DNA from: a virus
Direction: 5' to 3' (one strand)
DNA: 64,000 nt
Virus record (IMG/VR): IMGVR_UViG_3300040959_000769
Location: 73,167 to 137,166 of that record
The position numbers and the translations under genes are program-made. Under the pieces are notes generated by a model, which was given only the letters and a program-made list of their open reading frames with translations, ran no database searches and was not told the DNA's origin. Positions 8,682 through 62,506 of this stretch are shown in pieces (position 1 is the first letter of the stretch; the number at the start of each line of letters is the position of its first letter).

Positions 8682-8683
8682 CT

Positions 8684-12317: not shown

Positions 12318-13070
12318 TCACAAGAAATACAAAGCCCCCGACCCGCCGTGGCGAGCATATCTATCCTTCATCGTTTCACTCTCCATCTCTGACTTCCTCA
12401 CCTCGTAAGGAGGTAAAGGTCCGCGATGAAATTCGTGAGAATAAGTCCCACAGTAATGACCGATCAAAGTTGGCCGATGTGGGTTTGATCTAACTCGAGA
12501 TCCACGGTGGTAGGTCTGGGAGTGCCAACCTACGACATCACCCTTGCTGCCTTCAAAACGATAAATCTTTGGCTTCTTCTCCGCAATTTCAACCAAGATT
12601 CTTTGATTGACAATCTCGTCCTCAGCGTCTTTGTGATTTTCTCCGTCAAAAGAAATATGTTCCCACTTGTGAGAACCAACGATCAACTCAAAAGGTCCAG
12701 ACTGGTCGTCAAGTTCACCCAAAGCGACAATCACGCCAACATAAGTTGAGTTGGCATGAGGATCAGGCAGCAAAGCGTCCTTGTGCCAGCCGCACTGGGT
12801 GGATCTCTGCATGGTCATTTCTACGTGCAGAGCTGCCGCCATCTCAATTTCTTCAAAGGCACTTTCAATGGCTTGATGGCAAAGCACGTCAAGAATTTCC
12901 GGGTGCTCCAAGTATTTCGTGCTACGTCCCCATCCGTCAAGAGATTCACCATGGTTATGTTGGTACATCTCCAAATATGAATCAATAACCTCCCCAGGGA
13001 TAGCGCTTTGCAACACAAAAAATCCGTCTTGCTCGTACTGCTCCGCAACGCTTCTTTTGTCGTTCATCAT
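12318..13070 (-). CDS. PhyH-family Fe(II)/2OG dioxygenase
   Basis: GWHKD, ALGELDDQSGPFELIVGSH, GDVVGWHSQTYHRG. Confidence 0.85.
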   Translation of the reverse strand: MMNDKRSVAEQYEQDGFFVLQSAIPGEVIDSYLEMYQHNHGESLDGWGRSTKYLEHPEILDVLCHQAIESAFEEIEMAAALHVEMTMQRSTQCGWHKDALLPDPHANSTYVGVIVALGELDDQSGPFELIVGSHKWEHISFDGENHKDAEDEIVNQRILVEIAEKKPKIYRFEGSKGDVVGWHSQTYHRGSRVRSNPHRPTLIGHYCGTYSHEFHRGPLPPYEVRKSEMESETMKDRYARHGGSGALYFL

Positions 13071-13852
13071 TCTCCCGAGTTATGCATGTTGGCTCGATAC
13101 CAGCCGGAACCGTGCCACCGCATATCTGGATCGCGTTCCATTGATTCGACTACTTCACTAAGTTGTGGTCGTTCTGTTGACTCTGACCAAGTCCAATGAT
13201 TGGAAAAATGCCCAATCAATGCTGGTCTCGGAATGTTCCTACGTGGCGGAGAACCGCGATGAATTACCCTGCTGTTCCAGAACAGTGCATCGCCCTTCTT
13301 CGGCATGAAAGTTGTGACCTCATGTTCGTTATTATCCATCGCCATTTGACACATGTGGAGCATCCCCAAGCGATTGTCTTTGCCGAACGATATGTCAAGA
13401 TCCCAGCGATGAGAACCCTTCAGGTATTGGAATGGACCTGAACCCTCATCAATGTCAGCCAAAGCGATCCACACTCCAAGATATTGATCTGCACCGTTGG
13501 GATTGTCGTTGAGTTCATCAACGTGCCATCCGGTGTTTGACGATCTCCAGTAGGTCAGATCGGAGTGCAAGGCAAGGCACATGTCAAGTTTTGTGAAGGT
13601 GTCCGAAATTGACTGATGAAGAAGCAGATCTCGAATCTCCGGATACTCCAAGTACATCTGGTCAATGCCGGTGAAGCGCTGATGGTTATCGTCAAAGGTG
13701 AAGGTTTTGTGCCAAAAGTTGTTGACGTAGTCATCAATGACCGCATGCGGCACCAAACCAGGGCATTCAACTACCCCGTTTTTTTGAAATGTTTGGAGAA
13801 GTGTTTCAGTTTTGCCTGTCAAGGTGGACGATTGCGACAATTTTTTCTCCAT
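13067..13852 (-). CDS. PhyH-family Fe(II)/2OG dioxygenase (paralog of neighbour); start uncertain
   Basis: GWHVD, WIALADIDEGSGPFQYLKGSH, GDALFWNSRVIHRG. Confidence 0.85.
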   Translation of the reverse strand: MEKKLSQSSTLTGKTETLLQTFQKNGVVECPGLVPHAVIDDYVNNFWHKTFTFDDNHQRFTGIDQMYLEYPEIRDLLLHQSISDTFTKLDMCLALHSDLTYWRSSNTGWHVDELNDNPNGADQYLGVWIALADIDEGSGPFQYLKGSHRWDLDISFGKDNRLGMLHMCQMAMDNNEHEVTTFMPKKGDALFWNSRVIHRGSPPRRNIPRPALIGHFSNHWTWSESTERPQLSEVVESMERDPDMRWHGSGWYRANMHNSGE

Positions 13853-15371
13853 CGGTGCATGCGAGAGATTCGTACACGAGACTACCATCAATCAACATTG
13901 CATCCCCAGAGCAGGGCTTATCTAAAATTGTTGTGCCTTCTTTTTCGCGTATCACAATGTTTCCATTTTTGTAATCGTCGTTCAAGAAGAAAATCAGTGT
14001 CGTCGTTCCCGCCATCTCAACGTTATATGTTTCACCTTCTGGCGCACCAGCACCAGATCCTTCAACGAACTTCATGTGCGACAAGGAATTACCCAGGTCG
14101 TAAGCAAGATGCCTACATCCAAAGAATTCATCTGCATGTTTGATTACTTGAGCTATTGAATCGCCGATGTTTTCATACAAAACATTTGAGTAATGCGCTT
14201 CGTTTACGAGGTGTAGATGTGTTGACTCGGGAGGTGAGTCCGGACGCAGATTTTGCCATTCTGCTGATTTTAGGTTTGGGTAAATCTCTGAAGAGTCAAA
14301 GCATTCCTCAATGATGAGTACGCCTTCAACTTCAGGTGTCTTTAAACGCATTGTTTTGTCTTTCTTCACAAGAGATGAATCAACAAGTCGTCTTTCCATC
14401 GGATCCGCCTGTGTGCCAACAGCGAAACACCAGTTTCCACGGAAGCGTCGTTGCCCCTCCTGCATTCCACCCCTGACTCCGTGAGCCATTCGGAACAGGT
14501 CAGGCAACGCAAAATCACCTTCATCCCATTTATGCCACATCTGGATGTCGTTGTTGTAAGTAATTTCTTCAGTGATCTTCACCATCAGGCGATCGAAAAA
14601 TTCAATTTCTTCTTTTGTGGGTTGCCTGCCGTCAAAGAGAACTAGATGATCTTGGATGCCCCAAGGCGCACTACATGGGCAAACGCGCAGCGTGTCTCTG
14701 CCTGATGCGGGGTGAGGGTCTACGGCTTGCCTGGAGTAAGAATTGATGTAAGAGTCGCCATCAATCATGGTGACTTTGTCGCGTTTTGCCTGCACAAAAA
14801 GATCTGCCATGGACAGGTTTTCGTCATAGGGGGCTTCATAAATTGCCTCTATGAATTTTCGACTCAGTTTGTAGGGGTCGCCTTGTTGCCAGTTGGGAAC
14901 GTGAATGATCCTGGACTTTTTTAGGAATTCTTTTTCCGGCTCAGCAAGATCGTCGTACATCTTGCACATATCAACGAGCCCGGTTTTCCCGAATTCGCTA
15001 CTGCACGCAAAAAGCTCCATGTTCCACCCGGCGGCATACTGTGGCCACCGCATAGCAACGCCTTCTACATGCCATTGGATTAGATCTTTTTCAGGTGAGT
15101 TGACGCCATCCTCTTCGTCCTGCCTGATCGCCTTATCGTGATCCTGCATGTATGGCCAACTAAGAGTGTCTTCGCGAGGTCCGTTGTCATCAGTTGCGAA
15201 AGCAGTGAAGTTCAACTCGGGGCCAAGCGCTCTAAAGATTTTCACTACTTCAGCGTCAGAGAAGTACGCTTTTTTGAAAACGATCATTCCATGCTGCTTG
15301 TAAGCAGCGGCGTACAAAGATGGGTTTTCAACTACTTGCTCAACTGTGTGTTGATCAAATTCAACAATCAT
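13806..15371 (-). CDS. TauD/TfdA-family dioxygenase fused to a degenerate P4H-like domain
   Basis: N-terminal part: HGMIVFK, WHVEG, TGLVDM..MYDDL, HKWDEGDFAL...AHG..RR. C-terminal part: LIFFLNDDYKNG...PCSGDAML without the HxD/H ligands. Confidence 0.75.
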   Translation of the reverse strand: MIVEFDQHTVEQVVENPSLYAAAYKQHGMIVFKKAYFSDAEVVKIFRALGPELNFTAFATDDNGPREDTLSWPYMQDHDKAIRQDEEDGVNSPEKDLIQWHVEGVAMRWPQYAAGWNMELFACSSEFGKTGLVDMCKMYDDLAEPEKEFLKKSRIIHVPNWQQGDPYKLSRKFIEAIYEAPYDENLSMADLFVQAKRDKVTMIDGDSYINSYSRQAVDPHPASGRDTLRVCPCSAPWGIQDHLVLFDGRQPTKEEIEFFDRLMVKITEEITYNNDIQMWHKWDEGDFALPDLFRMAHGVRGGMQEGQRRFRGNWCFAVGTQADPMERRLVDSSLVKKDKTMRLKTPEVEGVLIIEECFDSSEIYPNLKSAEWQNLRPDSPPESTHLHLVNEAHYSNVLYENIGDSIAQVIKHADEFFGCRHLAYDLGNSLSHMKFVEGSGAGAPEGETYNVEMAGTTTLIFFLNDDYKNGNIVIREKEGTTILDKPCSGDAMLIDGSLVYESLACTDGEKIVAIVHLDRQN

Positions 15372-16036
15372 TTTTCGTCGTCGTATTCCTCAGCCAAGAA
15401 GTACTCAATCGCTGCTCGAATACGTTTCAACCCTTCTTTTGGACCGTATTCGTCGTAGCCGGTCTCAAAGTTTGCTGGCAGCAGGCACCCGTTAGTGAAT
15501 CGTGCTCGCCGCTTGCCGTCACGGGAAACAATAAACTTCTCAAAGTTGCCCAAAATCAACGAACCTGGATCAATACCAAGCCTCTTATAGATGGGGTGTG
15601 GCTCAAATGAGCGGTCGTCGTCTTCTCGGCTGTAACGAGATTTAACCAACTCGGTGAACGGTAGACGGACTCGGTAGTTGTAAAAGGCGTAGTTGTAAGC
15701 CTCTTCAGCCGTGCTCGTCGAGTTGTTTGCAAAGTCGCCATACGCGAACTCGCAATAGTCGTTAGTTGGCACGCAAACAATTTGAAAACCCTGATCTTCA
15801 TAGTCGTATTGCAGAACCTGAAGCATCGGATACTGCATTGAGTTTCCGCACTCTCCTGTCACGTTGACAATCATGGTGACGTTACCGCGTTGATTAGTGA
15901 TCAGATCGCCTTCTTCGCTGTCAAAAGGCAAAAGCGGAATGTCGTAAACGCTTTCCCCGTCAGCAGTTGGGCCAAGATCATGTTCGGAGACGAGTAGATC
16001 CATCATTTCTTGTGAAATTGACTCAATTTTCGCCAT
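15368..16036 (-). CDS. Glutathione peroxidase-family protein (Cys type)
   Basis: IVNVTGECGNSMQY (active-site codon TGC), GFQIVCVPTNDY, NFEKFIVSRDG. Confidence 0.8.
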   Translation of the reverse strand: MAKIESISQEMMDLLVSEHDLGPTADGESVYDIPLLPFDSEEGDLITNQRGNVTMIVNVTGECGNSMQYPMLQVLQYDYEDQGFQIVCVPTNDYCEFAYGDFANNSTSTAEEAYNYAFYNYRVRLPFTELVKSRYSREDDDRSFEPHPIYKRLGIDPGSLILGNFEKFIVSRDGKRRARFTNGCLLPANFETGYDEYGPKEGLKRIRAAIEYFLAEEYDDEK

Positions 16037-16085
16037 GCAGGGATAATACCATTCCCTTGCTCCTCGGCGATAAAACCCCAAAATA

Positions 16086-16094
16086 TGCTACAAT
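16086..16094 (+). promoter_or_regulatory. Extended -10 promoter (TGcTACAAT) for the plus-strand small-gene operon
   Basis: TGCTACAAT 33 nt upstream of ATG 16128, with AGGAG SD. Confidence 0.55.
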
Positions 16095-16127
16095 CGGTGT
16101 TGCACCAGTGTTCTGTAGGAGACGAAG

Positions 16128-16379
16128 ATGGTAGCTCTCAACAATATCAACAATGACCAAAAACTCTATCATTTGAATCTTATCAAAGAGTCTGCTGAAG
16201 AGTTGATTATCGTTGCAGCGCTTCACGCTGGAGTAAACCCAGAAACCATTGACACTGGCACGCACCCACTGCCCGACAGTTTTGACACAGAGGCAGAAGA
16301 CTTCAACCAACTGGACGTCAACCTGGCGGAACGGGTCAAGCAGTACAACGATCTCGTCACGCGAATCAACTCACTCTGA
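16128..16379 (+). CDS. Small acidic helical protein, paralog 1
   Basis: 83 aa; gapless match to the next two ORFs (E..[IV]...[AL].[VI][ND]P). Confidence 0.75.
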   Translation: MVALNNINNDQKLYHLNLIKESAEELIIVAALHAGVNPETIDTGTHPLPDSFDTEAEDFNQLDVNLAERVKQYNDLVTRINSL

Positions 16380-16386
16380 GGTCAAA

Positions 16387-16599
16387 ATGATTTTCTCAAT
16401 CTCCAACGAAAAGAAAAGAAGCGCCGCACTCAATGGTGTTGCCGCATGCGAAGAAGACGTATTCATGGCTTGCATGTCACTCAACATCGATCCAGTATCA
16501 GTTGCTGACGACTATTCCAGCGATGACCCCTCCTACGAAGTATTGTCAGATGCAATGCAAAAACTCCGAGACGCAAAGGCGTACTTGGCAGCACTCTGA
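16387..16599 (+). CDS. Small acidic helical protein, paralog 2
   Basis: MIFSISNEKK...CEEDVFMACMSLNIDPVSV; GAGG SD. Confidence 0.75.
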   Translation: MIFSISNEKKRSAALNGVAACEEDVFMACMSLNIDPVSVADDYSSDDPSYEVLSDAMQKLRDAKAYLAAL

Positions 16600-16614
16600 C
16601 GCTAGGAGCACAAA

Positions 16615-16827
16615 ATGGCATTGTCAGCAGCTCAAATCGCTCAAGCGAGAAGCGAAGCCCAAGACTTCTTGGAGTACTCAATCTTCGTGCTTTGCACGTT
16701 TCTGGAAGTTGACCCAGAAACAGCAACGTCCGCAATGGAAATCCCCGTTTCCGAAGCAGATCTAAACTATTACAACTACGTCTCGCTGAAGCGACAATTG
16801 TCGGCATTTGAGGCTCTAACGGCATGA
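16615..16827 (+). CDS. Small acidic helical protein, paralog 3
   Basis: MALSAAQ...LEYSIFVLCTFLEVDPETA; AGGAG SD. Confidence 0.75.
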   Translation: MALSAAQIAQARSEAQDFLEYSIFVLCTFLEVDPETATSAMEIPVSEADLNYYNYVSLKRQLSAFEALTA

Positions 16828-17054
16828 AGTTTTCGTCACCTCACCTTCGAGCCGTTCTGGATGGGGATGATCGACATCCAAGCGAAATCGCTACATCAAC
16901 TGGACGCTTCGTGCCTGAGGAAGAAACACCCGAATCGGAAAGCGTCAACAACAACATGGGAGCCGCAATCACCTTCAACCCTTCCGTTGGAGCGCTTGAA
17001 CTTGCCGAAGAAGGTGCAGTCATCATCTGCGAAAAAGTTAGAAAAGACACCTAA
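16824..17054 (+). CDS. Small acidic hypothetical protein
   Basis: 76 aa, ATGA-coupled to the previous gene. Confidence 0.65.
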   Translation: MKFSSPHLRAVLDGDDRHPSEIATSTGRFVPEEETPESESVNNNMGAAITFNPSVGALELAEEGAVIICEKVRKDT

Positions 17055-17389
17055 TGGCCATCAGGACCTCAACTCCAACATCAGGCAAGGTTTATAGCCC
17101 TCAGGCGGAACTTGACTGGACAAGCACACACTTGCTGTCATGCTTCTACATCTTGGGTCTCACAGAAGATGATATGGATACATACACCATTGACGACCTG
17201 GTTGATCGTTGCACTTGGATGTTTGAGCCACACACCCTTGAGGCTTACCTGACTGTCTTAGGTAAAGAAAGATCATACGACCCCGGATTTTCTTTCGGCA
17301 GAAAACAGCGCAGTTGGATGGTTCTCCTAGTCAGAAGGTTCTGGCGTCGTCGCCATATTTCGCAGTACGAGGTGAACAGCGGTGTCTAG
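17054..17389 (+). CDS. Hypothetical protein with basic C-terminus
   Basis: 111 aa, TAATG-coupled to the previous gene. Confidence 0.65.
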   Translation: MAIRTSTPTSGKVYSPQAELDWTSTHLLSCFYILGLTEDDMDTYTIDDLVDRCTWMFEPHTLEAYLTVLGKERSYDPGFSFGRKQRSWMVLLVRRFWRRRHISQYEVNSGV

Positions 17390-18155
17390 CAGCATTTTCC
17401 ATAAAGGCGTCGTTGCTCGAAGCCTTTCCACTAACCAAACTGGAACCACTTGGGAAGACGAGTTGAGCGTTGTGCGCGACTACTCCCGCCTCGCCGATGC
17501 GGCAATTACTGCCGCCAACGCTGACATGCGACAAGCTGCCGTTGGTCGAGACTGGTACTTCTGGAAATATTCCACGTGGCTAGGTGAACAAGACAACACA
17601 TGGCTTGAATACGCTTGGCGCAACTACGTAGCAGTTAAATCTCTATATGGCGTTCTGAAGCCAAGAGACTTGGAAACAACTGAGAAAATTCTCATCTCTG
17701 GATCTTTCCCCATCCAGATGCACACGGCACACATGCAGGCAGGGACAAAAGATTATTACTGGTTGAACTCACTTGAAACCAGAATCATGGAAGACACGCT
17801 GAACGAGAACGGAACCATCCCCAATCAACCAGAGTGCTCCTACAAAATCATTGACTTTGAAGACTTTGAGCAAGGCACAGTAACGGAATTTTTTGATTCA
17901 GCCCGCCTGCACACCCATGACTTCCTGACCCCGAACCTAAATCTGGTTGACAACATGCTTGACTCAATCAGGGTAGGCGGAATCATGATGATTTACGATC
18001 TTGCTGAATTCGGCGCTTTGTACGAAGACGGCATGCGCGCCCACGAAGAGCGAATGCACCGGATCAACCGCCGTATTGCCCAACGTGAAGACTACGAGGT
18101 GTATCACTTGGCACACGACGAGATCGGTACAGTTCTTGCCTACCGCATCGGCTAA
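17382..18155 (+). CDS. Hypothetical protein, possibly class I methyltransferase-like fold
   Basis: C-terminal LVDNMLDSIRVGGIMMIYD resembles the end of O-methyltransferase folds; no clear GxGxG motif I. Confidence 0.35.
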   Translation: MSSSIFHKGVVARSLSTNQTGTTWEDELSVVRDYSRLADAAITAANADMRQAAVGRDWYFWKYSTWLGEQDNTWLEYAWRNYVAVKSLYGVLKPRDLETTEKILISGSFPIQMHTAHMQAGTKDYYWLNSLETRIMEDTLNENGTIPNQPECSYKIIDFEDFEQGTVTEFFDSARLHTHDFLTPNLNLVDNMLDSIRVGGIMMIYDLAEFGALYEDGMRAHEERMHRINRRIAQREDYEVYHLAHDEIGTVLAYRIG

Positions 18156-18164
18156 TATAAATAC

Positions 18165-19163
18165 ATGCCCGCAAGATTCGGACCTCCAACTCGAGACAAG
18201 TACGCCTATTACAGTCTTGACGAAAACGACTGCAAAACTGTCAACGAGATTGAGTACACAAATTACAAAGGTGGAGTAATCCACTTCCACAACGTTTTCA
18301 ACGTTGACCGAGACGTAATTTTGCCATACATTGACGAAATGGCATACGTGCCATCATGTGGTCTTGAAATCATCAAAGACGACGAAGGCAACATGCTCCA
18401 CGGCGAAACTTTTGACGGCAAAATCGTGGACATGAAAGATCTACTCGCACTACCAATGCGGGTCGGCGGTATGGGGATGCCTGAACCAGTCAACCCAAGC
18501 ACGCCACACGACGTCAGAAACTTTTTTGAGGGTGTTGAGGAAAGTTTGTATCACTGCCTAATCAGGTACTGTGATATTTACCCACTTATCGTCAACTCAA
18601 TTTGGTGGCGAATGAGAGGACACTGTCTCAAGTACATGCCAGGAGCGAATCTGGGTCTCCACAACGACAACGACACCAACACCTTCACCATTGATGGGCA
18701 GAGGTACTACAGCGAACGAGAGATCGCTATGTACCAAGTCGTGAACGGTCTGGCTTATTTCAACGATGACTATGAAGGTGGAGAAATGCACTTCCCCTAC
18801 TTAGACATCACGGTAAAACCAAAAACCGGAGACATCATTCTTTTCCCTGCCAACTATGTTGGAACTCATGGAGTGGCGCAAGTTGGAGAAGGAGCACCTC
18901 GATACACCTACCTGACGCAGTTCGGTCATGGCGGAGAGCACAAATACGAAGTACTGGAGCCTCAGGAAAGCGACATGTGGCTAGCTCCGGTGTATGTGCC
19001 TTACCTGTACCAAGATCACGTCAAGTTCTCCCATTCGGGCTACTCGCACCTGGACACGTCAAAAGACTCAGCGTTAGGTTTCCACGCCTCAACTATTGAG
19101 ACGCAGCAACGCTCAAAAGAGGGCGCTCCAGTCGGAACTAAGATTCCGTACGAAGAGGAGTGA
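18165..19163 (+). CDS. 2OG-Fe(II) oxygenase, prolyl-4-hydroxylase-like
   Basis: LKYMPG..LGLHND, YFNDDYEGGEMHFP, THGV, RY. Confidence 0.85.
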   Translation: MPARFGPPTRDKYAYYSLDENDCKTVNEIEYTNYKGGVIHFHNVFNVDRDVILPYIDEMAYVPSCGLEIIKDDEGNMLHGETFDGKIVDMKDLLALPMRVGGMGMPEPVNPSTPHDVRNFFEGVEESLYHCLIRYCDIYPLIVNSIWWRMRGHCLKYMPGANLGLHNDNDTNTFTIDGQRYYSEREIAMYQVVNGLAYFNDDYEGGEMHFPYLDITVKPKTGDIILFPANYVGTHGVAQVGEGAPRYTYLTQFGHGGEHKYEVLEPQESDMWLAPVYVPYLYQDHVKFSHSGYSHLDTSKDSALGFHASTIETQQRSKEGAPVGTKIPYEEE

Positions 19164-19809
19164 AAGGAATAGTTCCTATCAGAGTTCCATGACCAAAGAA
19201 CTCCAGATAGGAAATACGTTCCCCTGACGTTACTGGCACAACTTCGTGAGTGCCTAAGAAACCGGCAGGATAAACAAATGCTGTTCCCGCTTCGGGGGCG
19301 AAATGCTTGTCGATGTATTTGAATCCAAGATCGCCACCGACGCAATCATCTTTCAGAATCAGAGATCCGGTCAGGACGCTGTAGATCGCTTTTTCGCTTT
19401 CCGAACCAGCACCAACTAAGTTGTCGTTGTGATATCCCATGTATCCACCCGGTTTGTAGGTAGCGACATGAGGCACGGCTCTCCACCAAATGTTTTCTTT
19501 TGCGTCAGGGAAGAAATTGAAATATTTGGTGACACATTCACCCATTGATTTTTCAAGAAGTTCTGCAAACTTCAGATCGTCGTCAGTGGTGTTCACTTTA
19601 AGTTGCAGAAGACGACCTGGGGAAGCATTGACCTGCTCCTCTGTGAAGATGTAGCCACCCCTATTCATGTACGTGCCATCATCCTGCAAGGTGTAGTCGC
19701 TTGGTTCTTGTTCGCGACGGCGTTCAAGCCATCCTTCAAAAAACGAAGCATCAATGTCTAGGACATTTCGATACTCAACGATCCCAAAGCCGTGATGGAT
19801 TGCTTCCAT
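19138..19809 (-). CDS. 2OG-Fe(II) oxygenase, P4H-like
   Basis: TYKPGGYMGYHND, GGDLGF, GTHEVVPVTSGERISY. Confidence 0.85.
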   Translation of the reverse strand: MEAIHHGFGIVEYRNVLDIDASFFEGWLERRREQEPSDYTLQDDGTYMNRGGYIFTEEQVNASPGRLLQLKVNTTDDDLKFAELLEKSMGECVTKYFNFFPDAKENIWWRAVPHVATYKPGGYMGYHNDNLVGAGSESEKAIYSVLTGSLILKDDCVGGDLGFKYIDKHFAPEAGTAFVYPAGFLGTHEVVPVTSGERISYLEFFGHGTLIGTIPFTPLRTES

Positions 19810-20390
19810 TACTTCTCGTCAGGGAATTCGGTTCCACGCTCGCGGTCATTGCGGAGACGCTTCACCTCTTTGGCTGAGGTTTCATGAACCTCGGGTGTCC
19901 AGTACCCGTCAGTGAAAAGATCAGCAACCTCCTGAGCCCTATCTCCTGACAGGTACAGGGTGTGCTCATTTGTGTAGCCTTCACGACCGGGATATGGCCA
20001 TCCATAAAGTCCGGCTTCAACATAATCAATGCCTGCTCCGGTGATGATGGATGCAATTTCCTGTTCGGACTCTTCGCCCCAGAGACCGTTGGCGTCAACG
20101 TAAAGTCCGTTGTAGCCACGAGATGCAACATAGTTCGCAATCTCAAGTGGAGCGCCACCAAAAGCAATGCAGAAAATGATGTCGCATTTTGCGAGCATCG
20201 CATCAAGGGTCACGAGATCAGTGAGATCAAACTCTGCTGCACGTTCGTGTGTTGCCTCAGAGCGATCAGCCGATGCCCAGACAACCCTGTGCCCGCTCTT
20301 ACACAAAGCATAGGCAAGGGTGCCGCCCATCTTTCCTGGGTGGGCAATTCCAATTGTTTTATCCGACTGGGGGGAGTATTGAGTATCCAT
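19809..20390 (-). CDS. NAD(P)-binding 6-phosphogluconate/3-hydroxyisobutyrate dehydrogenase-like protein
   Basis: IGIAHPGKMG Rossmann motif, CDIIFC, LYVDAN, YVEAG. Confidence 0.75.
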   Translation of the reverse strand: MDTQYSPQSDKTIGIAHPGKMGGTLAYALCKSGHRVVWASADRSEATHERAAEFDLTDLVTLDAMLAKCDIIFCIAFGGAPLEIANYVASRGYNGLYVDANGLWGEESEQEIASIITGAGIDYVEAGLYGWPYPGREGYTNEHTLYLSGDRAQEVADLFTDGYWTPEVHETSAKEVKRLRNDRERGTEFPDEK

Positions 20391-21189
20391 CTTCCATGTA
20401 CACATTCGTTGAGATTCGGGCAAGGGTAGGGTGTTCTTGTGGGTCAACCACATTTTCGCAAACATCAGGGTTTGGCGTACCTTGACAATACCACCCCAAG
20501 TAAGAGTAGCGCCACCCGCCAGTCACGGGCTGCACTTCATGCGCTGCAACATAATTAGACGGGAAGAAAAGCATGTCGCCTTTCTTTATGTCTTCGTGTT
20601 TGATATCTAGGTATTCGAAGTTATGAGCACCACCAGTGAAGTTCGTTCCGTCAAGCTCATCCTCCGACTTGACGTTGTCGTTCAGGTAAGCCACAACCGA
20701 AACGCTGTTGCGAGTGGCCAACTGATCACGAGGATGAGGCTTGCCGTACTCGTAGTCAGTACTCACATCTGCGTGCATTCCTAAAAACCCGCCAACCGGA
20801 TAAGCAACAATGTGGCTTTTGATCTTCCACCAAATGCACTTACCGGCAATTGGGAACATTTCTAGATACGAGAGAAGACACGCATCTCGGCGCTCCTCAA
20901 TGTAGTCAAGGACATCAATTACTTCAGAGCGGCTGTCCTGATGAACGAAACTCCCACGCCACGGCATCTCATCCAACGAATCTTTCTTAAAGAAATATCC
21001 GCTCCGATTGATGTAGCCGTCCTCACCAGTAATCGGGTCAACACCTGGCGTGTACATGGTCTCGCGCTCTGCCTGCAAAACGTCCTTGCAGTATTCACGC
21101 ATCCAATCCCAGTCAAGGTTGAACACGTTCTCAAAGAGGACGACACCACCACCGAGGTGTGTACCAACAGGATTATCGCTCATATTCAT
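20359..21189 (-). CDS. 2OG-Fe(II) oxygenase, P4H-like
   Basis: VAYPVGGFLGMHAD, VAYLND, FTGG, AHEVQPVTGGWRYSY. Confidence 0.85.
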   Translation of the reverse strand: MNMSDNPVGTHLGGGVVLFENVFNLDWDWMREYCKDVLQAERETMYTPGVDPITGEDGYINRSGYFFKKDSLDEMPWRGSFVHQDSRSEVIDVLDYIEERRDACLLSYLEMFPIAGKCIWWKIKSHIVAYPVGGFLGMHADVSTDYEYGKPHPRDQLATRNSVSVVAYLNDNVKSEDELDGTNFTGGAHNFEYLDIKHEDIKKGDMLFFPSNYVAAHEVQPVTGGWRYSYLGWYCQGTPNPDVCENVVDPQEHPTLARISTNVYMEDGYSILPPVG

Positions 21190-22741
21190 GTTCCCCCAGT
21201 TCAAGCATGTATCCAACATAGTCGTGGATGCGCTCAATGATCCGCTTCCGGTCATCGTTATCTCGAAGATGATTGAAACAACCGTAGATGGTGTCAATAG
21301 CAAACTGAACCAAGAAATCCTCGGGAGGATCGTGACCCCTGAAGCCTTCGTATGTCATGAAAGACAAATTATGGAAGTCCCATGGGCGAAACTGCAAAGG
21401 CTGGTGTGGGAACCAATCGGGATAATGCCATGCATGTCCGGCGTGCCGCATGTCTGGATGCCAACGCAGATACGCACGAACCTTCTCAATGACTGTCAAC
21501 GTGTCGTCGTCATTTGGTGCTTGCTTCATGAAGTCTTGATGCGGAGGGAACCCGCCATGCATGTCCCCGTTGCGAGAAAACAGGAACGACTGACCCTCAA
21601 GATCAAACCCTTCCATGTGGGCTTTGCTGTAACGCATCAAGTTAGCGAAAATTCGATCCTCCGGATCCATCTTCACTGGGTAGACATGGAAGTCCTCGCC
21701 AAACGGTTCATTGTCAAAAAACTCTTTCAACTTGACGCCACGCTCAGGAATGTTCCCATCCTTGGTGAAGATGAAAAGCGTTACCTTCTGAAATAGACAC
21801 TCAAGTCCCTCAAGGGCATAGATTCCCTTTGTGAAGACAAGAGGAATGTGGTCAGGGTTCGGACCTTTTGACTTGTCCTTATCAACGCCAGGGTATGACT
21901 GTACGTCACCAAAGTTCTCGTTACCATCAACCTTGTACTCGGGATCGTAGAAAGGCTTCTCCTTCCCTACCTCTACCCGCTGGAAGACCCTATCCTCTCG
22001 CTCCCAGCCATTGTAAAAACCGTGCATTACGGCACGATTGTCCCAGATGACTACGTCGCCTTCTTGCCACGTCCACTTGTAACGATTAGCTTCTGTTCGG
22101 CAATACTCCTCAACCCAGTCGTAGAGTTCTTCAAACCATGGGGTGCTCCCCCCGTCAAGTTGGGTGCCTGGTCCGGTCCAGTAAAGAAGAGTTTCTCCAG
22201 TATCCGGATGTGTTCGCAAGGCGGGATGGCTGACAACGTCACGTCCTGCGGCTCCAGTCTCCGCCACGAAACGAGCCGTCGGCAGGTGTTCCTTAATGTG
22301 CTCAGGACACTCTTCGTACAGATTTACAAGACTCACCCAGAATGTGTGACCGAAATCTTTATCAACACGGTAGGTCGTCATATGGATGGAAGTAACCGCA
22401 GGAGGAGCTTCCAAGAACGGGTTATCTACATGCCAGTTCTCTTTCAGAAACTGTTCAGGATCCGTTTTATCTTCAACATTCTTGACCGTTGGGTGATTTA
22501 CGCCCGCAAGAAGACCACCGTTGAAATCTTCATCAACTTCGCCTGTGTAGATAGCGTTGACCAGTTTCATGTGCTCCTGGTCGGTTGGGTTCATGCCGAT
22601 GAAACCAACCATCTTGTTCTTGTTGAAAATCAACTTGAAATACTCTGGGTCATCAAGAACTTGCCGGGCAGTGATGCCTCTCATCTTGAAACCGAGGTTG
22701 CCTAGTTTCAGTCCTAAGGCGATTCCGCCAAAACCTTTCAT
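21173..22741 (-). CDS. TauD/TfdA-family dioxygenase with unknown C-terminal domain
   Basis: WHVD, GHTFWVSLVNLYE, HPALRTHPDTGETLLY, WQEGDVVIWDNRAVMHG..R. Confidence 0.85.
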   Translation of the reverse strand: MKGFGGIALGLKLGNLGFKMRGITARQVLDDPEYFKLIFNKNKMVGFIGMNPTDQEHMKLVNAIYTGEVDEDFNGGLLAGVNHPTVKNVEDKTDPEQFLKENWHVDNPFLEAPPAVTSIHMTTYRVDKDFGHTFWVSLVNLYEECPEHIKEHLPTARFVAETGAAGRDVVSHPALRTHPDTGETLLYWTGPGTQLDGGSTPWFEELYDWVEEYCRTEANRYKWTWQEGDVVIWDNRAVMHGFYNGWEREDRVFQRVEVGKEKPFYDPEYKVDGNENFGDVQSYPGVDKDKSKGPNPDHIPLVFTKGIYALEGLECLFQKVTLFIFTKDGNIPERGVKLKEFFDNEPFGEDFHVYPVKMDPEDRIFANLMRYSKAHMEGFDLEGQSFLFSRNGDMHGGFPPHQDFMKQAPNDDDTLTVIEKVRAYLRWHPDMRHAGHAWHYPDWFPHQPLQFRPWDFHNLSFMTYEGFRGHDPPEDFLVQFAIDTIYGCFNHLRDNDDRKRIIERIHDYVGYMLELGEHEYER

Positions 22742-23463
22742 GAAGGCTCCTTCAGTTGTGGGTGACCCTCAAATGCGGGGCCAATACGATTACCGTTTTC
22801 GTCTAGCCCAGTTCGGATGCCACCCATCCAAGTCCAAGGCTGTTCTTGCAACTTCTTCATCTTTGCATCACCGTACGACTGTCGAGCAGCAGACAAATCT
22901 GGCTTGTCCCAGTAGTTCTCAACTGTGAACTCAACGCTTGGCATCAGAGAGTTGTCGTAAAACTGGAAAAACATAAAAGGTGAACCAGCAGGAAAAATAA
23001 CTGGCTGACCAATTTTTGTGATCTTCCAGTTCATGTTGAACTCGTCTGGCCACCAGTCAGATGGAATGTGCGCCGTTAAAGGAACAGCCCCATCAACAAA
23101 ATAGTTAGGTGACCCGCTTATCCACGTGGACACTCCTGGAGGCGTTGAGAACGTCCACCCAACAGTGAACGACATAATCCCAACAATGCTGGGCATAACA
23201 ATGTCACGTTCGTAAGTCTGACCATTTGTCTCAAACGTCATCTTCTCGCCGGACAGGACACGAGGAACAGTCAGCCCCCCGTCCCATTGAATAACAACAT
23301 CTTGTTGGAGAAGAACCTCCCAACCGTTGACGTTTGCTTCAGTCAGGGGAAGACACTTGTATGCATGCTTCTTGTAGGTGTCATCCATCCAGTCGCGTCG
23401 AACTGACGCTTGCTTTATCTCAGGTGGATTTTGATGTGTTCTAGTGAGAGTTACATCCATCAC
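22738..23463 (-). CDS. DUF6065-like protein
   Basis: AYKCLPLTEANVNGWEV, TPPG..TWISGSPN, SDWWP..F.MNWKIT, FPAGSPF resemble DUF6065 as recalled; needs HMM confirmation. Confidence 0.65.
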   Translation of the reverse strand: MMDVTLTRTHQNPPEIKQASVRRDWMDDTYKKHAYKCLPLTEANVNGWEVLLQQDVVIQWDGGLTVPRVLSGEKMTFETNGQTYERDIVMPSIVGIMSFTVGWTFSTPPGVSTWISGSPNYFVDGAVPLTAHIPSDWWPDEFNMNWKITKIGQPVIFPAGSPFMFFQFYDNSLMPSVEFTVENYWDKPDLSAARQSYGDAKMKKLQEQPWTWMGGIRTGLDENGNRIGPAFEGHPQLKEPS

Positions 23464-24161
23464 TGAATAGCCATCGTCTGACCGCTGGCAACAGGAATTC
23501 CCATTGTCGTATCTTGCTGCGCCGAGTACCCACCTCCGCCGTGGCTCTGGTGGTTACGGTCGTTGTAGTCATACATGGTGACGGCAGAATACTTGATTCC
23601 ACTCTTTACAGGCTGAGAAGCATGAGCGTAAATGAAATCACTTGGATGGACAATGACATCACCTGCTTCGGGGACAAACTGAAGGTTTTTGTACGGCATG
23701 ATGTACTCGCCGCCTTCGTAGTCGTCATTCAAATACCCAATAGCAGACACGGCGCAAGAATAAGAAAACCCAGAGTCAGGATGAACTGAGAAATGCTGCC
23801 CCTCGCCATAGCGAACGAAGTTGGTGGCTTCTTCATAGTCAAGTTGCAAGTTGTACATTGACGAGTAGTGCTGCACGCACTGGCGTACACCAGAAATAAC
23901 TTCCTCGTACACCCGTCCAAGATCTGCGAACTCTTCAGGAACAGGGATGTCTGCTTGACGCAACTTGAAGTCAACGCAATCTCTGTAATCCTTCATCACC
24001 TCGTAGTCTCCAACTGTCGCCTGCTTCCATGAGAAGTATTCGTGGGTGCTCTCAGCGAGACCGGTTTCAAGTCGAGCGATGAAGTTTGAGTCAGGTGCCC
24101 AAACGTCTTTGTACAGCATGATGCCGTCGGTCGGGTTGCCCAAGTATCCGCCAATTCTCAT
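23460..24161 (-). CDS. 2OG-Fe(II) oxygenase, P4H-like
   Basis: FVRYGEGQHFSVHPD, YLNDDYEGGE, YAHASQPVKSGIKYS (Lys at the 2OG-binding position). Confidence 0.88.
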   Translation of the reverse strand: MRIGGYLGNPTDGIMLYKDVWAPDSNFIARLETGLAESTHEYFSWKQATVGDYEVMKDYRDCVDFKLRQADIPVPEEFADLGRVYEEVISGVRQCVQHYSSMYNLQLDYEEATNFVRYGEGQHFSVHPDSGFSYSCAVSAIGYLNDDYEGGEYIMPYKNLQFVPEAGDVIVHPSDFIYAHASQPVKSGIKYSAVTMYDYNDRNHQSHGGGGYSAQQDTTMGIPVASGQTMAIQ

Positions 24162-24164
24162 TAT

Positions 24165-24797
24165 TTACCTCAGTTCAGTGATTGTGTAGAAAGAAGGGGT
24201 AGTCCATCTTTCTCCACGGGTAATTTGTTTTACACCATGAAGATAGTGGACATCACCTGGATGTGCTACCGCTAAGCCTGGTTTTATCGGAATTTCAATA
24301 TCGAACTCAGGGTAATAAAACTCGCCACCATCAAAATCTTCGTTCCAGTAAATGATTGAGTTCAGGTCATACAGAGGGAAAGGATTTGGCTTTCCGTCAT
24401 TCAACTGTTTATCCGCGTGTGGTTGCTGCTCATTGCCTGGAAGCCATCTGATAAGTACTGGCGGGCGCTTGTATAGAGCAACGTTGAATTTGTCCTCCAA
24501 CACTTTTTGCATCTTGTCAATATATTTATCAATCAGATTAAATATATCTGGGGAGATGCGTTTGAGGATTTCGCCACTACACATTCGATCCCACCAATAG
24601 GAGGCGTCGTAAATACACGTGCCATCTTCATCAAATTCGTCACCCATAGGATTTTCCCACTCTTCAATAGTCGGGAAAAACTTTTGCAGGGTTTTCAGAT
24701 CATCTAGATCTACGAAGTTTTCAATGACTGTGATGTTCTCTGCTGTTGTTCCGAAGTGACCTGGTTCAACTAGCGATTTTTCTTCAACTTGTTCCAT
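24165..24797 (-). CDS. 2OG-Fe(II) oxygenase, P4H-like
   Basis: IRWLPGNEQQPHAD, YWNEDFDGGEFYY, YLHGVKQITRGERWT. Confidence 0.88.
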   Translation of the reverse strand: MEQVEEKSLVEPGHFGTTAENITVIENFVDLDDLKTLQKFFPTIEEWENPMGDEFDEDGTCIYDASYWWDRMCSGEILKRISPDIFNLIDKYIDKMQKVLEDKFNVALYKRPPVLIRWLPGNEQQPHADKQLNDGKPNPFPLYDLNSIIYWNEDFDGGEFYYPEFDIEIPIKPGLAVAHPGDVHYLHGVKQITRGERWTTPSFYTITELR

Positions 24798-24799
24798 CA

Positions 24800-24863
24800 G
24801 GTAAGCGAACTTACCATAAACATAGATCCCTCGTCCACCACGTTGGCAGTCAAGGGATCTATG
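24800..24863 (-). promoter_or_regulatory. Two intergenic hairpins between the repeat gene and the first oxygenase
   Basis: Plus strand CATAGATCCCT (24821-24831) pairs with AGGGATCTATG (24853-24863). On the minus strand GGTAAG-TTCG-CTTACC (24800-24815) lies 2 nt before ATG 24797. Confidence 0.55.
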
Positions 24864-24881
24864 TCACTCCTCTTGTTTTTC

Positions 24882-25469
24882 CTACTTAAAGCTCGGCGGG
24901 AAGAAAGGCGGGAAGTGTGGTGGGAAGTGAGGCGGGAACCACGGTGGGAAGTGTGGTGGGAAGAACGGTGGGAAATGTGGTGGGAAGTGTGGAGGGAAGA
25001 ACGGCGGGAAATGTGGCGGGAAGTGAGGTGGGAAGTGTGGAGGGAAGTGAGGTGGGAAAAACGGTGGGAAGTGCGGAGGGAAGTGAGGAGGGAAAAATGG
25101 TGGAAAATGCGGAGGGAAATGGGGAGGGAAAAACGGCGGGAAGTGGGGTGGAAAGTGCGGAGGGAAGAATGGCGGAAAGTGTGGCGGAAAGTGAGGCGGG
25201 AAAAACGGTCCGATTGCGCGAACAGAAATAGTTGTTCCCAAAGGAATTTCAGTGAAAGTGGTTGTGAGGTTGTATTCCTGACCGTCAACAATGATGTCAT
25301 GCGCTTTACCGACATCACCTAAAACACTCGTGTTTAGCGTATCGACAGCTTCAGAAACGGCGGAAAACCCGAGATTCTGCAACGACACCACGAAATTGCC
25401 AGCGTCTGTGAGATCGGTATACGTGAACGTACCTAAAGGTAGTCCGCTTCCGCCTTTGTTACCTGCCAT
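24882..25469 (-). CDS. Pro-Pro-(His/Phe)-Phe tandem-repeat protein (86-aa N-terminal domain plus repeat tail)
   Basis: 195 aa; starts 6 nt after the fibre stop; synonymous Pro/His/Phe codons vary between units, favouring this frame. Confidence 0.85.
   Translation of the reverse strand: MAGNKGGSGLPLGTFTYTDLTDAGNFVVSLQNLGFSAVSEAVDTLNTSVLGDVGKAHDIIVDGQEYNLTTTFTEIPLGTTISVRAIGPFFPPHFPPHFPPFFPPHFPPHFPPFFPPHFPPHFPPFFPPHFPPHFPPFFPPHFPPHFPPHFPPHFPPFFPPHFPPHFPPFFPPHFPPWFPPHFPPHFPPFFPPSFK
24885..25211 (-). repeat. Coding 12-nt tandem repeat: GPFF + 26 x PPxF (17 His, 7 Phe, 1 Trp, 1 Ser) + K
   Basis: Counted from the translation; higher-order PPHF-PPHF-PPFF (36-nt) period. Confidence 0.95.
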
Positions 25470-57948: not shown

Positions 57949-57974
57949 AGTGGTGAGCATACAACACCGACGAG

Positions 57975-59370: not shown

Positions 59371-59427
59371 TCACCCATCTTATTGCAGTTCCGACAGAGC
59401 CTCAATGAAGTTGCTATGATCTGCCTC

Positions 59428-59610: not shown

Positions 59611-59684
59611 GACTGAATAGGTCGTTCGGTCGAGCGAAGATGCGGGAGTTGTTGCTTTCTCTAACAGCAACAACCTTTATCGGC

Positions 59685-59912: not shown

Positions 59913-59947
59913 CCCTACAAAAAACAAGGGCGACATAAACTTGGTGC

Positions 59948-61286: not shown

Positions 61287-61294
61287 TATATGAA

Positions 61295-62457: not shown

Positions 62458-62506
62458 GCCACAAGAGTAGCGCATAAAGTAACTGCCCCTGAACTAAAAT
62501 GGTGCA

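What the first reader, a model, noticed from the sequence alone, without database searches (positions are those of the whole stretch)
12318..25469. Candidate undescribed phage tailoring system: PPxF-repeat protein heading an oxygenase cluster
Seen: in minus-strand transcription order the giant fibre is followed by the PPxF-repeat gene, two P4H-like oxygenases, a DUF6065-like gene, TauD, P4H-like, a Rossmann dehydrogenase and P4H-like. The enzyme genes overlap or lie within 3 nt of each other. GPx, TauD and two PhyH genes form a second minus-strand block. That is nine Fe/2OG oxygenases next to a protein whose tail is half proline. Established: P4H-type enzymes hydroxylate Pro-rich peptides (the chlorovirus PBCV-1 encodes one), TauD-family enzymes beta-hydroxylate His/Asp in siderophore pathways, and T4-like cyanophages carry many 2OG oxygenases without known substrates. 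Inference: the repeat is the dedicated substrate, either a hydroxylated and possibly glycosylated virion-tip decoration or a multi-core RiPP-like precursor.
Basis: partly seen in the sequence, partly recalled or inferred. Interest (0 to 1): 0.9.

Follow-up and report, generated by a model that had tools for sequence, protein, structure and literature searches.

The report
Phage proline-repeat protein beside hydroxylase array
An uncultured phage of actinobacteria encodes, right after its giant tail fibre, a small protein with a cell-wall-binding head and a tail of 26 Pro-Pro-x-Phe repeats, followed by collagen-type proline-hydroxylase-like enzymes; this gene order recurs in hundreds of phage contigs, so the repeat is a testable candidate substrate, but no chemistry has been shown.

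Summary
On the minus strand a 2094-aa Mtd_N tail fibre is followed 6 nt later by a 195-aa protein made of a PASTA-fold head and 26 PP[H/F/W/S]F units. After a strong hairpin come P3H-like and P4H-like oxygenases, DUF6065, TauD-like and further enzymes. Nine 2OG oxygenases lie in 12318-25469, and all keep the iron-binding triad.

- Forward: 41 of 45 repeat-anchored viral loci have an oxygenase within 5 kb downstream, and 0 of 23 have one upstream.
- Reverse: in two DUF6065 clades only about 25% identical, 22/24 and 22/22 loci carry an aromatic-proline repeat gene upstream.
- Control: about 70 fibre-anchored loci without the repeat have no DUF6065 and no array.

The stated context was wrong. The phage is an actinophage (two WhiB genes, actinophage-like sheath), not a T4-like cyanophage. 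The RiPP reading is unlikely.

DUF6065 has a dUTPase-like fold and matches the "dUTPase-fold cysteine protein" of the Syn9 dioxygenase array (Iyer et al. 2010). Elsewhere it is fused to P4H-like and JmjC oxygenases.

That the repeat is the substrate remains an inference (about 0.5). Two arrays lack the repeat.

This scan had already noted the same system in at least 17 other genomes. I found no paper describing the repeat.

The parts
25476..31760 (-). Giant tail fibre, 2094 aa, with an Mtd_N N-terminal domain. Its stop lies 6 nt before the repeat gene.
   Evidence: PF18454, E 7.8e-17. Mtd_N fibres also precede the repeat genes in other clades.
24882..25469 (-). 195-aa PASTA-(PPxF)26 protein, the candidate substrate or fibre-associated rod.
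25206..25442 (-). PASTA-fold head, residues 10-88.
   Evidence: AF2 pLDDT about 90. The top 15 VIA hits are all PASTA domains, Z 5.3-7.9, rmsd about 2.1-2.9 over 57-71 residues for 14 of the 15; the next hit has Z 3.8. No Pfam hit for this copy.
24888..25199 (-). 26 PP[H/F/W/S]F units, residues 91-194, followed by a terminal Lys.
   Evidence: AF2 gives no regular secondary structure, pLDDT about 50.
24819..24865 (-). Stem-loop of 15+6 bp in the 84-nt spacer after the repeat gene's stop. It may act as a transcript attenuator or stabiliser.
   Evidence: MFE -38.9 kcal/mol, z -3.97 against shuffles. Function is inferred.
24165..24797 (-). 2OG/Fe oxygenase, 210 aa ('ox210' family), prolyl-3-hydroxylase-like.
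   Evidence: Family profile against PDB: P3H1 (8k0e) 1e-18, B. anthracis P4H 1e-11, PBCV-1 P4H 8e-7. H127, D129, H187 and R197 are invariant. Found in 155 loci.
23460..24161 (-). 2OG/Fe oxygenase, 233 aa ('ox233' family), prolyl-4-hydroxylase-like. It overlaps DUF6065 by 4 nt.
   Evidence: PF13640, 37.8 bits. Profile against PDB: B. anthracis P4H 1e-7, LH3, PBCV-1 P4H 3e-3. H127, D129 and H180 are invariant and K190 is nearly invariant. It lies directly before DUF6065 in 110 of 143 loci.
22738..23463 (-). DUF6065, 241 aa, with a dUTPase-like fold and an invariant Cys. It is the constant partner of the P4H-like gene.
   Evidence: Z 10.5; the 11 best hits, and 12 of the 13 at Z 8 or more, are dUTPases. 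Fused elsewhere to PF13640, JmjC/Cupin_8 and Stf0 sulfotransferase.
21173..22741 (-). TauD-like dioxygenase, 522 aa, with a C-terminal extension of about 230 aa of unknown family.
20359..21303 (-). PF13640 oxygenase. The ORF is listed as 314 aa; the true start is probably near 21183-21189.
   Evidence: The ortholog in L003 is 280 aa.
19809..20465 (-). Small Rossmann NAD(P)-binding protein.
   Evidence: weak 2-Hacid_dh_C, NAD_binding_2 and F420_oxidored hits
19138..19809 (-). PF13640 oxygenase, 223 aa.
18165..19163 (+). PF13640 oxygenase, 332 aa, convergent with the minus-strand block.
   Evidence: Syntenic in L003.
15368..16081 (-). Glutathione-peroxidase-like thiol peroxidase that keeps the NVTGEC Cys.
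   Evidence: The GPx family occurs in 84 related loci and often lies directly after the repeat gene.
13806..15371 (-). Second TauD-like dioxygenase, 521 aa.
12318..13891 (-). Two PhyH-family dioxygenases (13067-13891 and 12318-13070).
11249..12316 (+). Glycosyltransferase abutting the island.
   Evidence: phrog_7162, E 3.9e-37. Not conserved in the related loci.

Best explanation
The 195-aa gene encodes a tail-fibre-module protein of an aquatic actinophage. It has a PASTA-type head, which would bind peptidoglycan, and a rod of about 104 residues made of Pro-Pro-(His/Phe)-Phe units.

The protein is made together with the Mtd_N fibre. The enzymes downstream are expressed by read-through past a hairpin.

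The two universally conserved oxygenases are P3H-like ox210 and P4H-like ox233; the latter works with its dUTPase-fold partner DUF6065. They most likely hydroxylate the paired prolines of the rod before or during virion assembly, as collagen P3H and P4H do on Pro-Pro-Gly and as the PBCV-1 enzyme does on viral Pro-rich repeats.

The lineage-specific extras (TauD-like, PhyH, further PF13640 paralogs, GPx, Rossmann protein, glycosyltransferase) would add or support further modifications.

Shown here:
- the gene content
- the PASTA and dUTPase-like folds
- intact catalytic residues
- the conserved, polar gene linkage

Inferred:
- that the repeat is the substrate
- the type and site of modification
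- that the protein is in the virion
For: (1) Forward linkage. Of the loci fetched with a repeat DNA pattern, 41/45 have a 2OG oxygenase within 5 kb downstream and 28/33 have DUF6065 within 8 kb. Upstream the counts are 0/23 and 0/13. The median gap to the first oxygenase is 142 nt, and there are typically 4-9 oxygenases per 8 kb.

(2) Reverse linkage. Among loci fetched through DUF6065 alone, 22/24 in the window's clade have the repeat upstream when at least 8 kb of flank is held. In a clade only 22-31% identical the count is 20/22, or 22/22 once PFFP-type variants are counted.

(3) Control. In 80 loci anchored on a neighbouring fibre protein, DUF6065 and arrays appear only where the repeat is present (4 loci). 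About 70 loci without the repeat have none, and 3 of them have a single oxygenase.

(4) The linkage survives domain shuffling. The heads are PASTA, fn3, He_PIG or none. The tails end in K, in Cys-rich knots or in Hint domains.

(5) Four of five contigs in which adjacency is broken still carry 5-11 PF13640 genes elsewhere.

(6) Enzyme type. The ox210 profile matches P3H1 at 1e-18 and the ox233 profile matches bacterial P4H at 1e-7. Both also match PBCV-1 P4H and collagen lysyl hydroxylase. The triad and the 2OG-binding R/K are conserved.

(7) DUF6065 is fused to PF13640 and JmjC hydroxylases in other proteins and overlaps ox233 by 1 or 4 nt in most loci.

(8) The repeat is under selection at the peptide level.

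(9) The enzymes lie in the late structural module, on the same strand as the fibre.
Against: - No chemistry, proteomics or expression data exist.
- Arrays occur without the repeat: L162 and L174, and Syn9, whose array follows Gly-rich fibre proteins.
- A DUF6065-P4H fusion sits in a bacterial chromosomal context with no repeat gene.
- This genome has at least five further PF13640 genes far from the repeat gene.
- The number of oxygenases does not track the number of repeat units (rho 0.01).
- The TauD-like domains resemble small-molecule enzymes.
- All loci may descend from one broad phage lineage, so the counts are not independent events.
- Pro flanked by bulky aromatic residues is an untested P4H substrate.
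Confidence: 0.5

Rival explanations
1. The oxygenase array modifies other targets: other fibre or baseplate proteins such as collagen-like segments, or host envelope or host proteins. On this view the PPxF protein is only a structural neighbour in the same tail-fibre module.
For: - Arrays persist where the repeat is missing. In L162 and L174 a 272-aa short fibre with a G-P-X segment precedes the enzymes.
- The Syn9 array follows Gly-rich fibre proteins.
- More PF13640 genes sit near baseplate genes in this genome and in phages without the repeat.
- The number of enzymes does not scale with the number of repeat units.
- A bacterial DUF6065-P4H fusion has no repeat gene nearby.
Against: - Fibre homologs without the repeat almost never have the array.
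- The repeat gene is typically the gene directly upstream of the first oxygenase, with a median gap of 142 nt.
- The repeat is the only Pro-rich sequence in the island.
Confidence: 0.25
2. The island is a small-molecule tailoring or metabolic set, that is secondary-metabolite or auxiliary metabolic genes, as was proposed for the Syn9 array. It would be unrelated to any phage protein.
For: - Iyer et al. 2010 (PMC2938197) proposed secondary-metabolite roles for the cyanophage array.
- The TauD-like domains are nearest to taurine, alkylsulfate and phenoxypropionate dioxygenases.
- PhyH enzymes, a carbamoyltransferase, a methyltransferase and a glycosyltransferase are in the genome.
Against: - There is no scaffold-building enzyme (NRPS, PKS or ATP-grasp) among the ORFs scanned.
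- The island sits in the late structural module.
- The core enzymes match protein hydroxylases.
- The link to the repeat gene is tight and polar.
Confidence: 0.12
3. The repeat protein is a RiPP-like multi-core precursor that is hydroxylated, cut and released as small peptides.
For: - Many identical short cores are followed by tailoring enzymes.
- A hairpin after the 'precursor' gene would give a high precursor-to-enzyme ratio.
Against: - The N-terminus is a folded PASTA domain, or fn3 in relatives, not a leader peptide.
- The same repeats end fibre-type proteins of 700-1561 aa.
- No protease, cyclase, exporter or recognition element was found.
- There are no cleavage motifs between the units.
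Confidence: 0.05
4. The oxygenases and the dUTPase-fold protein act on nucleotides or phage DNA bases.
For: - DUF6065 has a dUTPase/dCTP-deaminase-like fold.
- Some 2OG oxygenases (TET/JBP, AlkB) modify nucleic acids. PHROG labels such as 'DNA endonuclease V' are attached to related families.
Against: - DUF6065 does not match any dUTPase by sequence profile, and its invariant residues are unlike dUTPase motifs.
- The core enzymes match P3H and P4H far better than TET.
- The island lies in the late tail-fibre module.
- DUF6065 is fused to JmjC-type protein hydroxylases and to a sulfotransferase.
Confidence: 0.05

Closest known systems
Tandem dioxygenase array of Synechococcus phage Syn9 (gp41-gp54), described by Iyer, Abhiman, de Souza and Aravind 2010, NAR 38:5261 (PMC2938197)
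   Same: - Many tandem classical 2OG dioxygenases of several families.
- A protein with the dUTPase fold and a conserved Cys. Syn9 gp43 matches the DUF6065 profile at E 1e-6.
- The array lies directly after the tail-fibre genes.
   Different: - Syn9 is a T4-like cyanophage with tryptophan halogenases and a JmjC/MINA member. None of these was seen here.
- Syn9 has no PPxF protein; its neighbours are Gly-rich.
- That paper proposed secondary-metabolite synthesis and named no protein substrate.
Chlorovirus PBCV-1 prolyl 4-hydroxylase acting on virus-encoded Pro-rich repeats (PDB 5c5t; the biochemistry is recalled from my own knowledge: Eriksson et al. 1999)
   Same: A virus encodes both a P4H-type enzyme and proline-rich repeat proteins. 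The ox210 and ox233 profiles match 5c5t at 8e-7 and 3e-3.
   Different: - PBCV-1 is a eukaryotic virus with a single enzyme and PAPK-type repeats that are not adjacent to the enzyme gene.
- Here there is a bank of 4-9 enzymes, a DUF6065 partner, aromatic PPxF units and strict gene adjacency in phages.
Collagen prolyl 3-hydroxylase 1 / prolyl 4-hydroxylase pair of animals, and B. anthracis P4H
   Same: The best solved relatives are P3H1 (1e-18) and B. anthracis P4H (1e-7 and 1e-11). A P3H-like enzyme and a P4H-like enzyme lie beside a substrate with paired prolines, as in Pro-Pro-Gly giving 3Hyp-4Hyp-Gly (the collagen chemistry is from my own knowledge).
   Different: - There is no Gly-X-Y periodicity, so no collagen triple helix is expected.
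- There is no PDI subunit or peptide-substrate-binding domain.
- Regiochemistry has not been tested.
Plant extensins and hydroxyproline-rich glycoproteins (from my own knowledge)
   Same: Short Pro-rich units with aromatic residues form extended rods that are hydroxylated and then glycosylated. A glycosyltransferase abuts this island.
   Different: There is no Ser-Pro4 motif. The glycosyltransferase is not conserved with the repeat. The comparison is an analogy only.
PASTA domains of PknB/StkP kinases and class B PBPs
   Same: The head has the PASTA fold, and relatives pass the Pfam PASTA threshold. PASTA occurs in Gram-positive envelopes, which fits an actinobacterial host.
   Different: Here there is a single phage-borne domain, without signal peptide or membrane anchor, fused to a proline-aromatic rod. 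Binding has not been tested.

Membership tests
P4H/P3H-type 2OG-Fe(II) oxygenases (PF13640 group) | HxD...H iron-binding triad on a double-stranded beta-helix | tested here: met
   H127, D129 and H180 are invariant in 31 ox233-family sequences. H127, D129 and H187 are invariant in 31 ox210-family sequences.
P4H/P3H-type 2OG-Fe(II) oxygenases (PF13640 group) | Basic residue that binds the 2OG C5 carboxylate | tested here: met
   K190 is nearly invariant in ox233. R197 is invariant in ox210.
P4H/P3H-type 2OG-Fe(II) oxygenases (PF13640 group) | Score above the Pfam gathering threshold of 27 bits | tested here: met
   ox233 scores 37.8, ox314 45.1, ox223 30.0 and ox332 32.4 bits. ox210 alone scores only 20.6 bits, but its family profile matches P3H1 at 71 bits.
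P4H/P3H-type 2OG-Fe(II) oxygenases (PF13640 group) | Hydroxylation of peptidyl proline | not testable with these tools
   Needs an enzyme assay or MS.
Syn9-type tandem dioxygenase array (Iyer et al. 2010) | Several tandem 2OG dioxygenases of different families | tested here: met
   Nine in 13 kb: PF13640 x5, TauD x2, PhyH x2.
Syn9-type tandem dioxygenase array (Iyer et al. 2010) | Co-encoded dUTPase-fold protein with a conserved cysteine | tested here: met
   DUF6065 fold Z 10.5 to dUTPases. C37 is invariant in 34 sequences. Syn9 gp43 matches the DUF6065 profile.
Syn9-type tandem dioxygenase array (Iyer et al. 2010) | Tryptophan halogenases and a JmjC/MINA member in the array | tested here: not met
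   No such Pfam family among the island ORFs scanned.
PASTA domain | Small alpha/beta fold of PknB/PBP2x PASTA units | tested here: met
   The top 15 hits are all PASTA, Z up to 7.9, rmsd 2.1 over 66 residues covering the whole domain.
PASTA domain | Pfam PF03793 sequence match | tested here: inconclusive
   The window's copy has no hit and hhalign to the PASTA-type heads is weak. Relatives with the same tail pass: P0006 scores 25.8 and P0103 26.4 bits.
Trimeric dUTPase (for DUF6065) | dUTPase fold | tested here: met
Trimeric dUTPase (for DUF6065) | Sequence kinship with dUTPases and their catalytic motifs | tested here: not met
   The profile search of PDB finds no dUTPase. The invariant residues R23, W25, M26, H33, A34, Y35, C37, P39, N44, G47, N120 and G228 are unlike dUTPase motifs (the motifs are recalled from my own knowledge).
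RiPP precursor with tailoring enzymes | Short unstructured leader plus core(s), with a protease, recognition element or exporter nearby | tested here: not met
   The N-terminus is a folded PASTA head. No such genes were found. The repeats also end large fibre-type proteins.
Collagen-like protein | Gly at every third residue | tested here: not met
   The tail is PPxF with a period of 4 and contains no Gly.

The most novel reading that the evidence does not exclude
Aquatic actinophages build an extensin- or collagen-like element on their tail fibres. It is a PASTA-headed aromatic-polyproline rod about 30 nm long whose paired prolines become 3-Hyp/4-Hyp, through a P3H-like enzyme and a P4H-like enzyme that needs a dUTPase-fold partner. 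In some lineages the His/Phe side chains or the new hydroxyls are further modified (TauD-like, glycosyl, carbamoyl). This would be the first enzymatic hydroxylation of a bacteriophage virion protein. It would also supply the long-missing substrate class for phage 2OG-oxygenase arrays.
Probability: 0.35. Interest if true: 0.85.

Novelty: new variant of a known kind. Interest (0 to 1): 0.72.

Why it matters
Banks of 2OG/Fe oxygenases in phages have been known since about 2007-2010. They have been explained only by guesses: DNA repair, 2OG balance, secondary metabolites.

Here, and in hundreds of uncultured phage contigs, such a bank is tied to one unusual and easily synthesised peptide motif. 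That turns the open question into a simple experiment: co-expression or peptide assays read out by mass spectrometry.

If the inference holds, four things follow.
- Collagen-type proline hydroxylation would extend to bacteriophage virions.
- DUF6065, a family of more than 2000 sequence clusters, would gain a function.
- A new kind of adhesin stalk for thick Gram-positive walls would be revealed.
- Abundant freshwater actinobacteria, whose phages are almost uncultured, would gain a host-recognition module to study.

Tried and rejected
- GenBank phage records. The island DNA, the repeat protein, its head, the repeat DNA and DUF6065 found nothing. ox233 found only distant (27-32%) cyanophage oxygenases.
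- hhalign of the window's head against the PASTA-type heads was weak, probability 5.6%. The fold search settled the question.
- Promoter and terminator consensus scans were at chance level.
- Dose relation. There is no correlation between repeat number, or kinds of x residue, and oxygenase number.
- His-rich repeats go with TauD-like genes: 10/15 against 4/33, p 3e-4. These loci are one clade, and His-rich fn3-type repeats lack TauD, so I do not count this as evidence.
- T4-like cyanophage context: rejected.
- RiPP and DNA-modification readings: kept only as low-probability rivals.
- Genome contigs gave only 4 DUF6065 loci, all phage-like MAG contigs.
- Literature searches for DUF6065, prolyl hydroxylase/PASTA/hydroxyproline with phage, and freshwater actinophages found no description of the repeat.

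Full report
**What is there.** The window is the right-hand 64 kb of a 137-kb IMG/VR virus record that is 92% complete. It has a contractile-tail module (sheath at 48168-49694).

On the minus strand a 2094-aa fibre (25476-31760) with an Mtd_N N-terminus is followed 6 nt later by a 195-aa ORF (24882-25469). Residues 91-194 of that ORF are 26 units of PP[H/F/W/S]F, and the last residue is Lys. Tandem Repeats Finder sees periods of 12 and 36 nt.

The repeat is maintained as a peptide, not as DNA. 23 of the 26 12-nt units differ. Differences between units fall 716 times on third codon positions, against 161 and 167 on positions 1 and 2.

After the stop codon there is an 84-nt spacer with a strong stem-loop (-38.9 kcal/mol, z -3.97). 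Then come the enzyme genes, which are tightly packed:
- two PF13640 oxygenases
- DUF6065
- a TauD-like protein with an unknown C-terminal half
- a third PF13640
- a small Rossmann protein
- a fourth PF13640
- a convergent fifth PF13640 on the + strand

A second block holds GPx, TauD-like and two PhyH genes.

**What the phage is.** It is not a T4-like cyanophage.
- The sheath's best relatives are Gordonia, Brevibacterium and Arthrobacter myoviruses, at 32-37% identity.
- The genome has two WhiB genes.
- Three of four other large contigs that carry the repeat have WhiB too.
- No GenBank phage record matched the island, the repeat gene or DUF6065.
- ox233 matches cyanophage oxygenases only at 27-32% identity.

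**The repeat protein.** AlphaFold2 models residues 10-88 with pLDDT of about 90. The repeat comes out without regular secondary structure at pLDDT of about 50.

The head is a PASTA domain. The 15 best of 48,161 chains are all PASTA units of PknB, StkP, PrkC and PBPs (Z 5.3-7.9, whole domain aligned). The next chain scores Z 3.8. The best viral model is an uncultured-phage 'PASTA_pknB' protein.

A protein search found 156 relatives of the tail. Their heads are PASTA, fn3, He_PIG or none. The repeat either runs to a terminal Lys or is followed by a Cys-rich knot, an fn3 domain or a Hint/intein-like domain. The same tract also ends fibre-type proteins of 725-1561 aa. This architecture is that of a virion adhesin or decoration, not of a RiPP precursor.

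**Linkage, forward.** Gene maps of these loci show one recurrent order: Mtd_N-type fibre, then repeat protein, then 1-10 PF13640 paralogs with DUF6065, often GPx, and sometimes TauD-like or Rossmann genes.

| Measure | Downstream of the repeat gene | Upstream |
|---|---|---|
| Oxygenase within 5 kb | 41/45 | 0/23 |
| Oxygenase within 8 kb | 30/33 | 0/13 |
| DUF6065 within 8 kb | 28/33 | 0/13 |

Only loci with enough flank are counted. The median distance to the first oxygenase is 142 nt.

Four of five contigs where adjacency fails carry 5-11 PF13640 genes elsewhere on the fragment.

**Linkage, reverse.** DUF6065 alone retrieves more than 575 viral contigs.
- Among the 80 closest to the window's copy, 22 of 24 loci with at least 8 kb of upstream flank have the repeat on the same strand, 1.4-7.8 kb upstream. 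With at least 6 kb of flank the count is 38 of 40.
- In a second clade whose DUF6065 is only 22-31% identical, the strict count is 20 of 22. All three apparent exceptions carry PFFP-type variants of the repeat, so the count becomes 22 of 22.
- L162 and L174 are true exceptions. They keep ox210, ox233, DUF6065 and TauD after a 272-aa short fibre with a G-P-X segment, and they have no aromatic-proline tract.

**Linkage, control.** I examined 80 loci anchored on the fibre-like protein at 32328-33521.
- Four have the repeat, and all four have DUF6065 and an array.
- Six are cut before the relevant region.
- The remaining roughly 70 have neither the repeat nor DUF6065. Three of them have a single oxygenase next to a protein of about 500 aa.

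The counts are not phylogenetically independent. They do span deep divergence and shuffled domain architectures.

**The enzymes.** Clustering over about 195 loci gives three near-universal families: ox210 (155 loci), ox233 (158 loci) and DUF6065 (144 loci).
- Family profiles against PDB sequences put ox210 nearest prolyl 3-hydroxylase 1 (1e-18).
- They put ox233 nearest B. anthracis P4H (1e-7).
- Both also match PBCV-1 P4H, collagen lysyl hydroxylase and PKHD enzymes; ox210 also clearly matches PHD2, which ox233 matches only marginally (E 0.12-0.8). TET matches only ox210, and far more weakly than the P3H/P4H hits.
- The iron triad and the 2OG-binding Lys/Arg are conserved.
- The TauD-like domain is nearest small-molecule enzymes.

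**DUF6065.** The model is confident (pLDDT 89.8) and has a dUTPase/dCTP-deaminase-like fold. The 11 best hits are dUTPases, and 12 of the 13 hits at Z 8 or more are (the other is a herpesvirus dUTPase-related tegument protein); the best has Z 10.5. There is no sequence kinship to dUTPases, and the family has its own invariant KRDWMD...HAYxCxP motif.

In 110 of 143 loci it is directly preceded by ox233, mostly with a 1- or 4-nt overlap.

A full-library profile search finds 2131 clusters. Among them are fusions of DUF6065 to PF13640, to JmjC/Cupin_8 hydroxylases and to an Stf0 sulfotransferase. So it is a partner of peptide-type hydroxylases.

One such fusion lies in an ordinary bacterial chromosomal context without any repeat gene. 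The module is therefore not intrinsically tied to PPxF.

**Relation to the literature.** Iyer et al. 2010 described ten tandem dioxygenases in phage Syn9. [quoted passage not shown] They proposed secondary-metabolite synthesis.

I checked Syn9. Its array lies right after the tail-fibre genes, and gp43 matches my DUF6065 profile (E 1e-6). There is no PPxF protein; the neighbours are Gly-rich.

Sullivan et al. 2010 suggested DNA repair or 2OG balancing.

None of my searches found a paper describing the aromatic-proline repeat or its linkage to the array.

Earlier notes of this scan report the same system in at least 17 other genomes, with the same reading. One note's claim that enzyme number follows the tract was not reproduced here (rho 0.01).

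The best reading is a fibre-associated rod with a PASTA head, whose paired prolines are hydroxylated by the co-encoded P3H-like and P4H-like enzymes. I put this at 0.5.

It remains an inference because:
- no chemistry or expression data exist
- arrays can exist without the repeat
- further oxygenase clusters lie elsewhere in the genome

The system is a new variant of known kinds, namely viral P4H with Pro-rich repeats and Syn9-type arrays. It is of fairly high interest because it gives these arrays a concrete, easily tested substrate.

Noticed in passing
window 55434-62475 (-): A third enzyme cluster, far from the repeat gene: a carbamoyltransferase (55434-56894), four PF13640-type oxygenases (56891-57625, 57975-58727, 58693-59370, 61801-62475) and a methyltransferase (61295-61801).
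   Followed up: partly
window 11249-12316 (+): A glycosyltransferase (phrog_7162, E 3.9e-37) abuts the PhyH end of the island. It has no Pfam hit and no homolog in the related loci.
   Followed up: partly
relatives: P0103; L125:7848-9227, L103, L073, L053, L013, L076: In several clades the repeat tract is followed directly by a Hint/intein-like domain that begins with Cys (Intein_splicing, E 3.9e-6 in P0103). In other clades 20-70-aa Cys-rich knots follow. The window's clade ends in ...FK. This suggests C-terminal processing or attachment of the rod.
   Followed up: partly
proteins P0192, P0232, P0260, P0205, P0212, P0190, P0207: DUF6065 occurs fused to JmjC/Cupin_8, to PF13640 oxygenase and to Stf0 sulfotransferase domains. 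P0197 is fused to an Arm DNA-binding domain. P0205 lies in a bacterial context next to FUR, an aminotransferase and cobalamin genes.
   Followed up: partly
L162:6494-7312, L174:6465-7283: The two array-bearing loci without a PPxF gene have, just before the enzymes, a 272-aa short fibre with an N-terminal collagen-like G-P-X segment. Its C-terminal domain is homologous to that of the giant fibre.
   Followed up: partly
L225, L230, L296, and upstream in L256, L277, L288: A separate conserved pair, an oxygenase of about 200 aa followed by a protein of about 500 aa, sits in the baseplate region of phages with and without the repeat.
   Followed up: no
window 7887-11003 (+): A ParB-like protein (7887-8681), a 199-aa protein, a PAPS-reductase-domain protein (9280-10449) and a ParB_N protein (10446-11003) stand in a row. 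Their function here is unknown.
   Followed up: no
window 51555-53129 (-): A 524-aa protein with an ADP-ribosylglycohydrolase match (phrog_6572, E 4.8e-38) lies between tail genes.
   Followed up: no
window 21176-21874 and 13809-14414 (-): Both TauD-like proteins carry C-terminal extensions of about 200-230 aa with no Pfam match.
   Followed up: partly
G000:C1:5089-5295 (+) and 43902-44093 (-), outside the window: Two WhiB-family genes. They mark the phage as an actinophage.
   Followed up: yes
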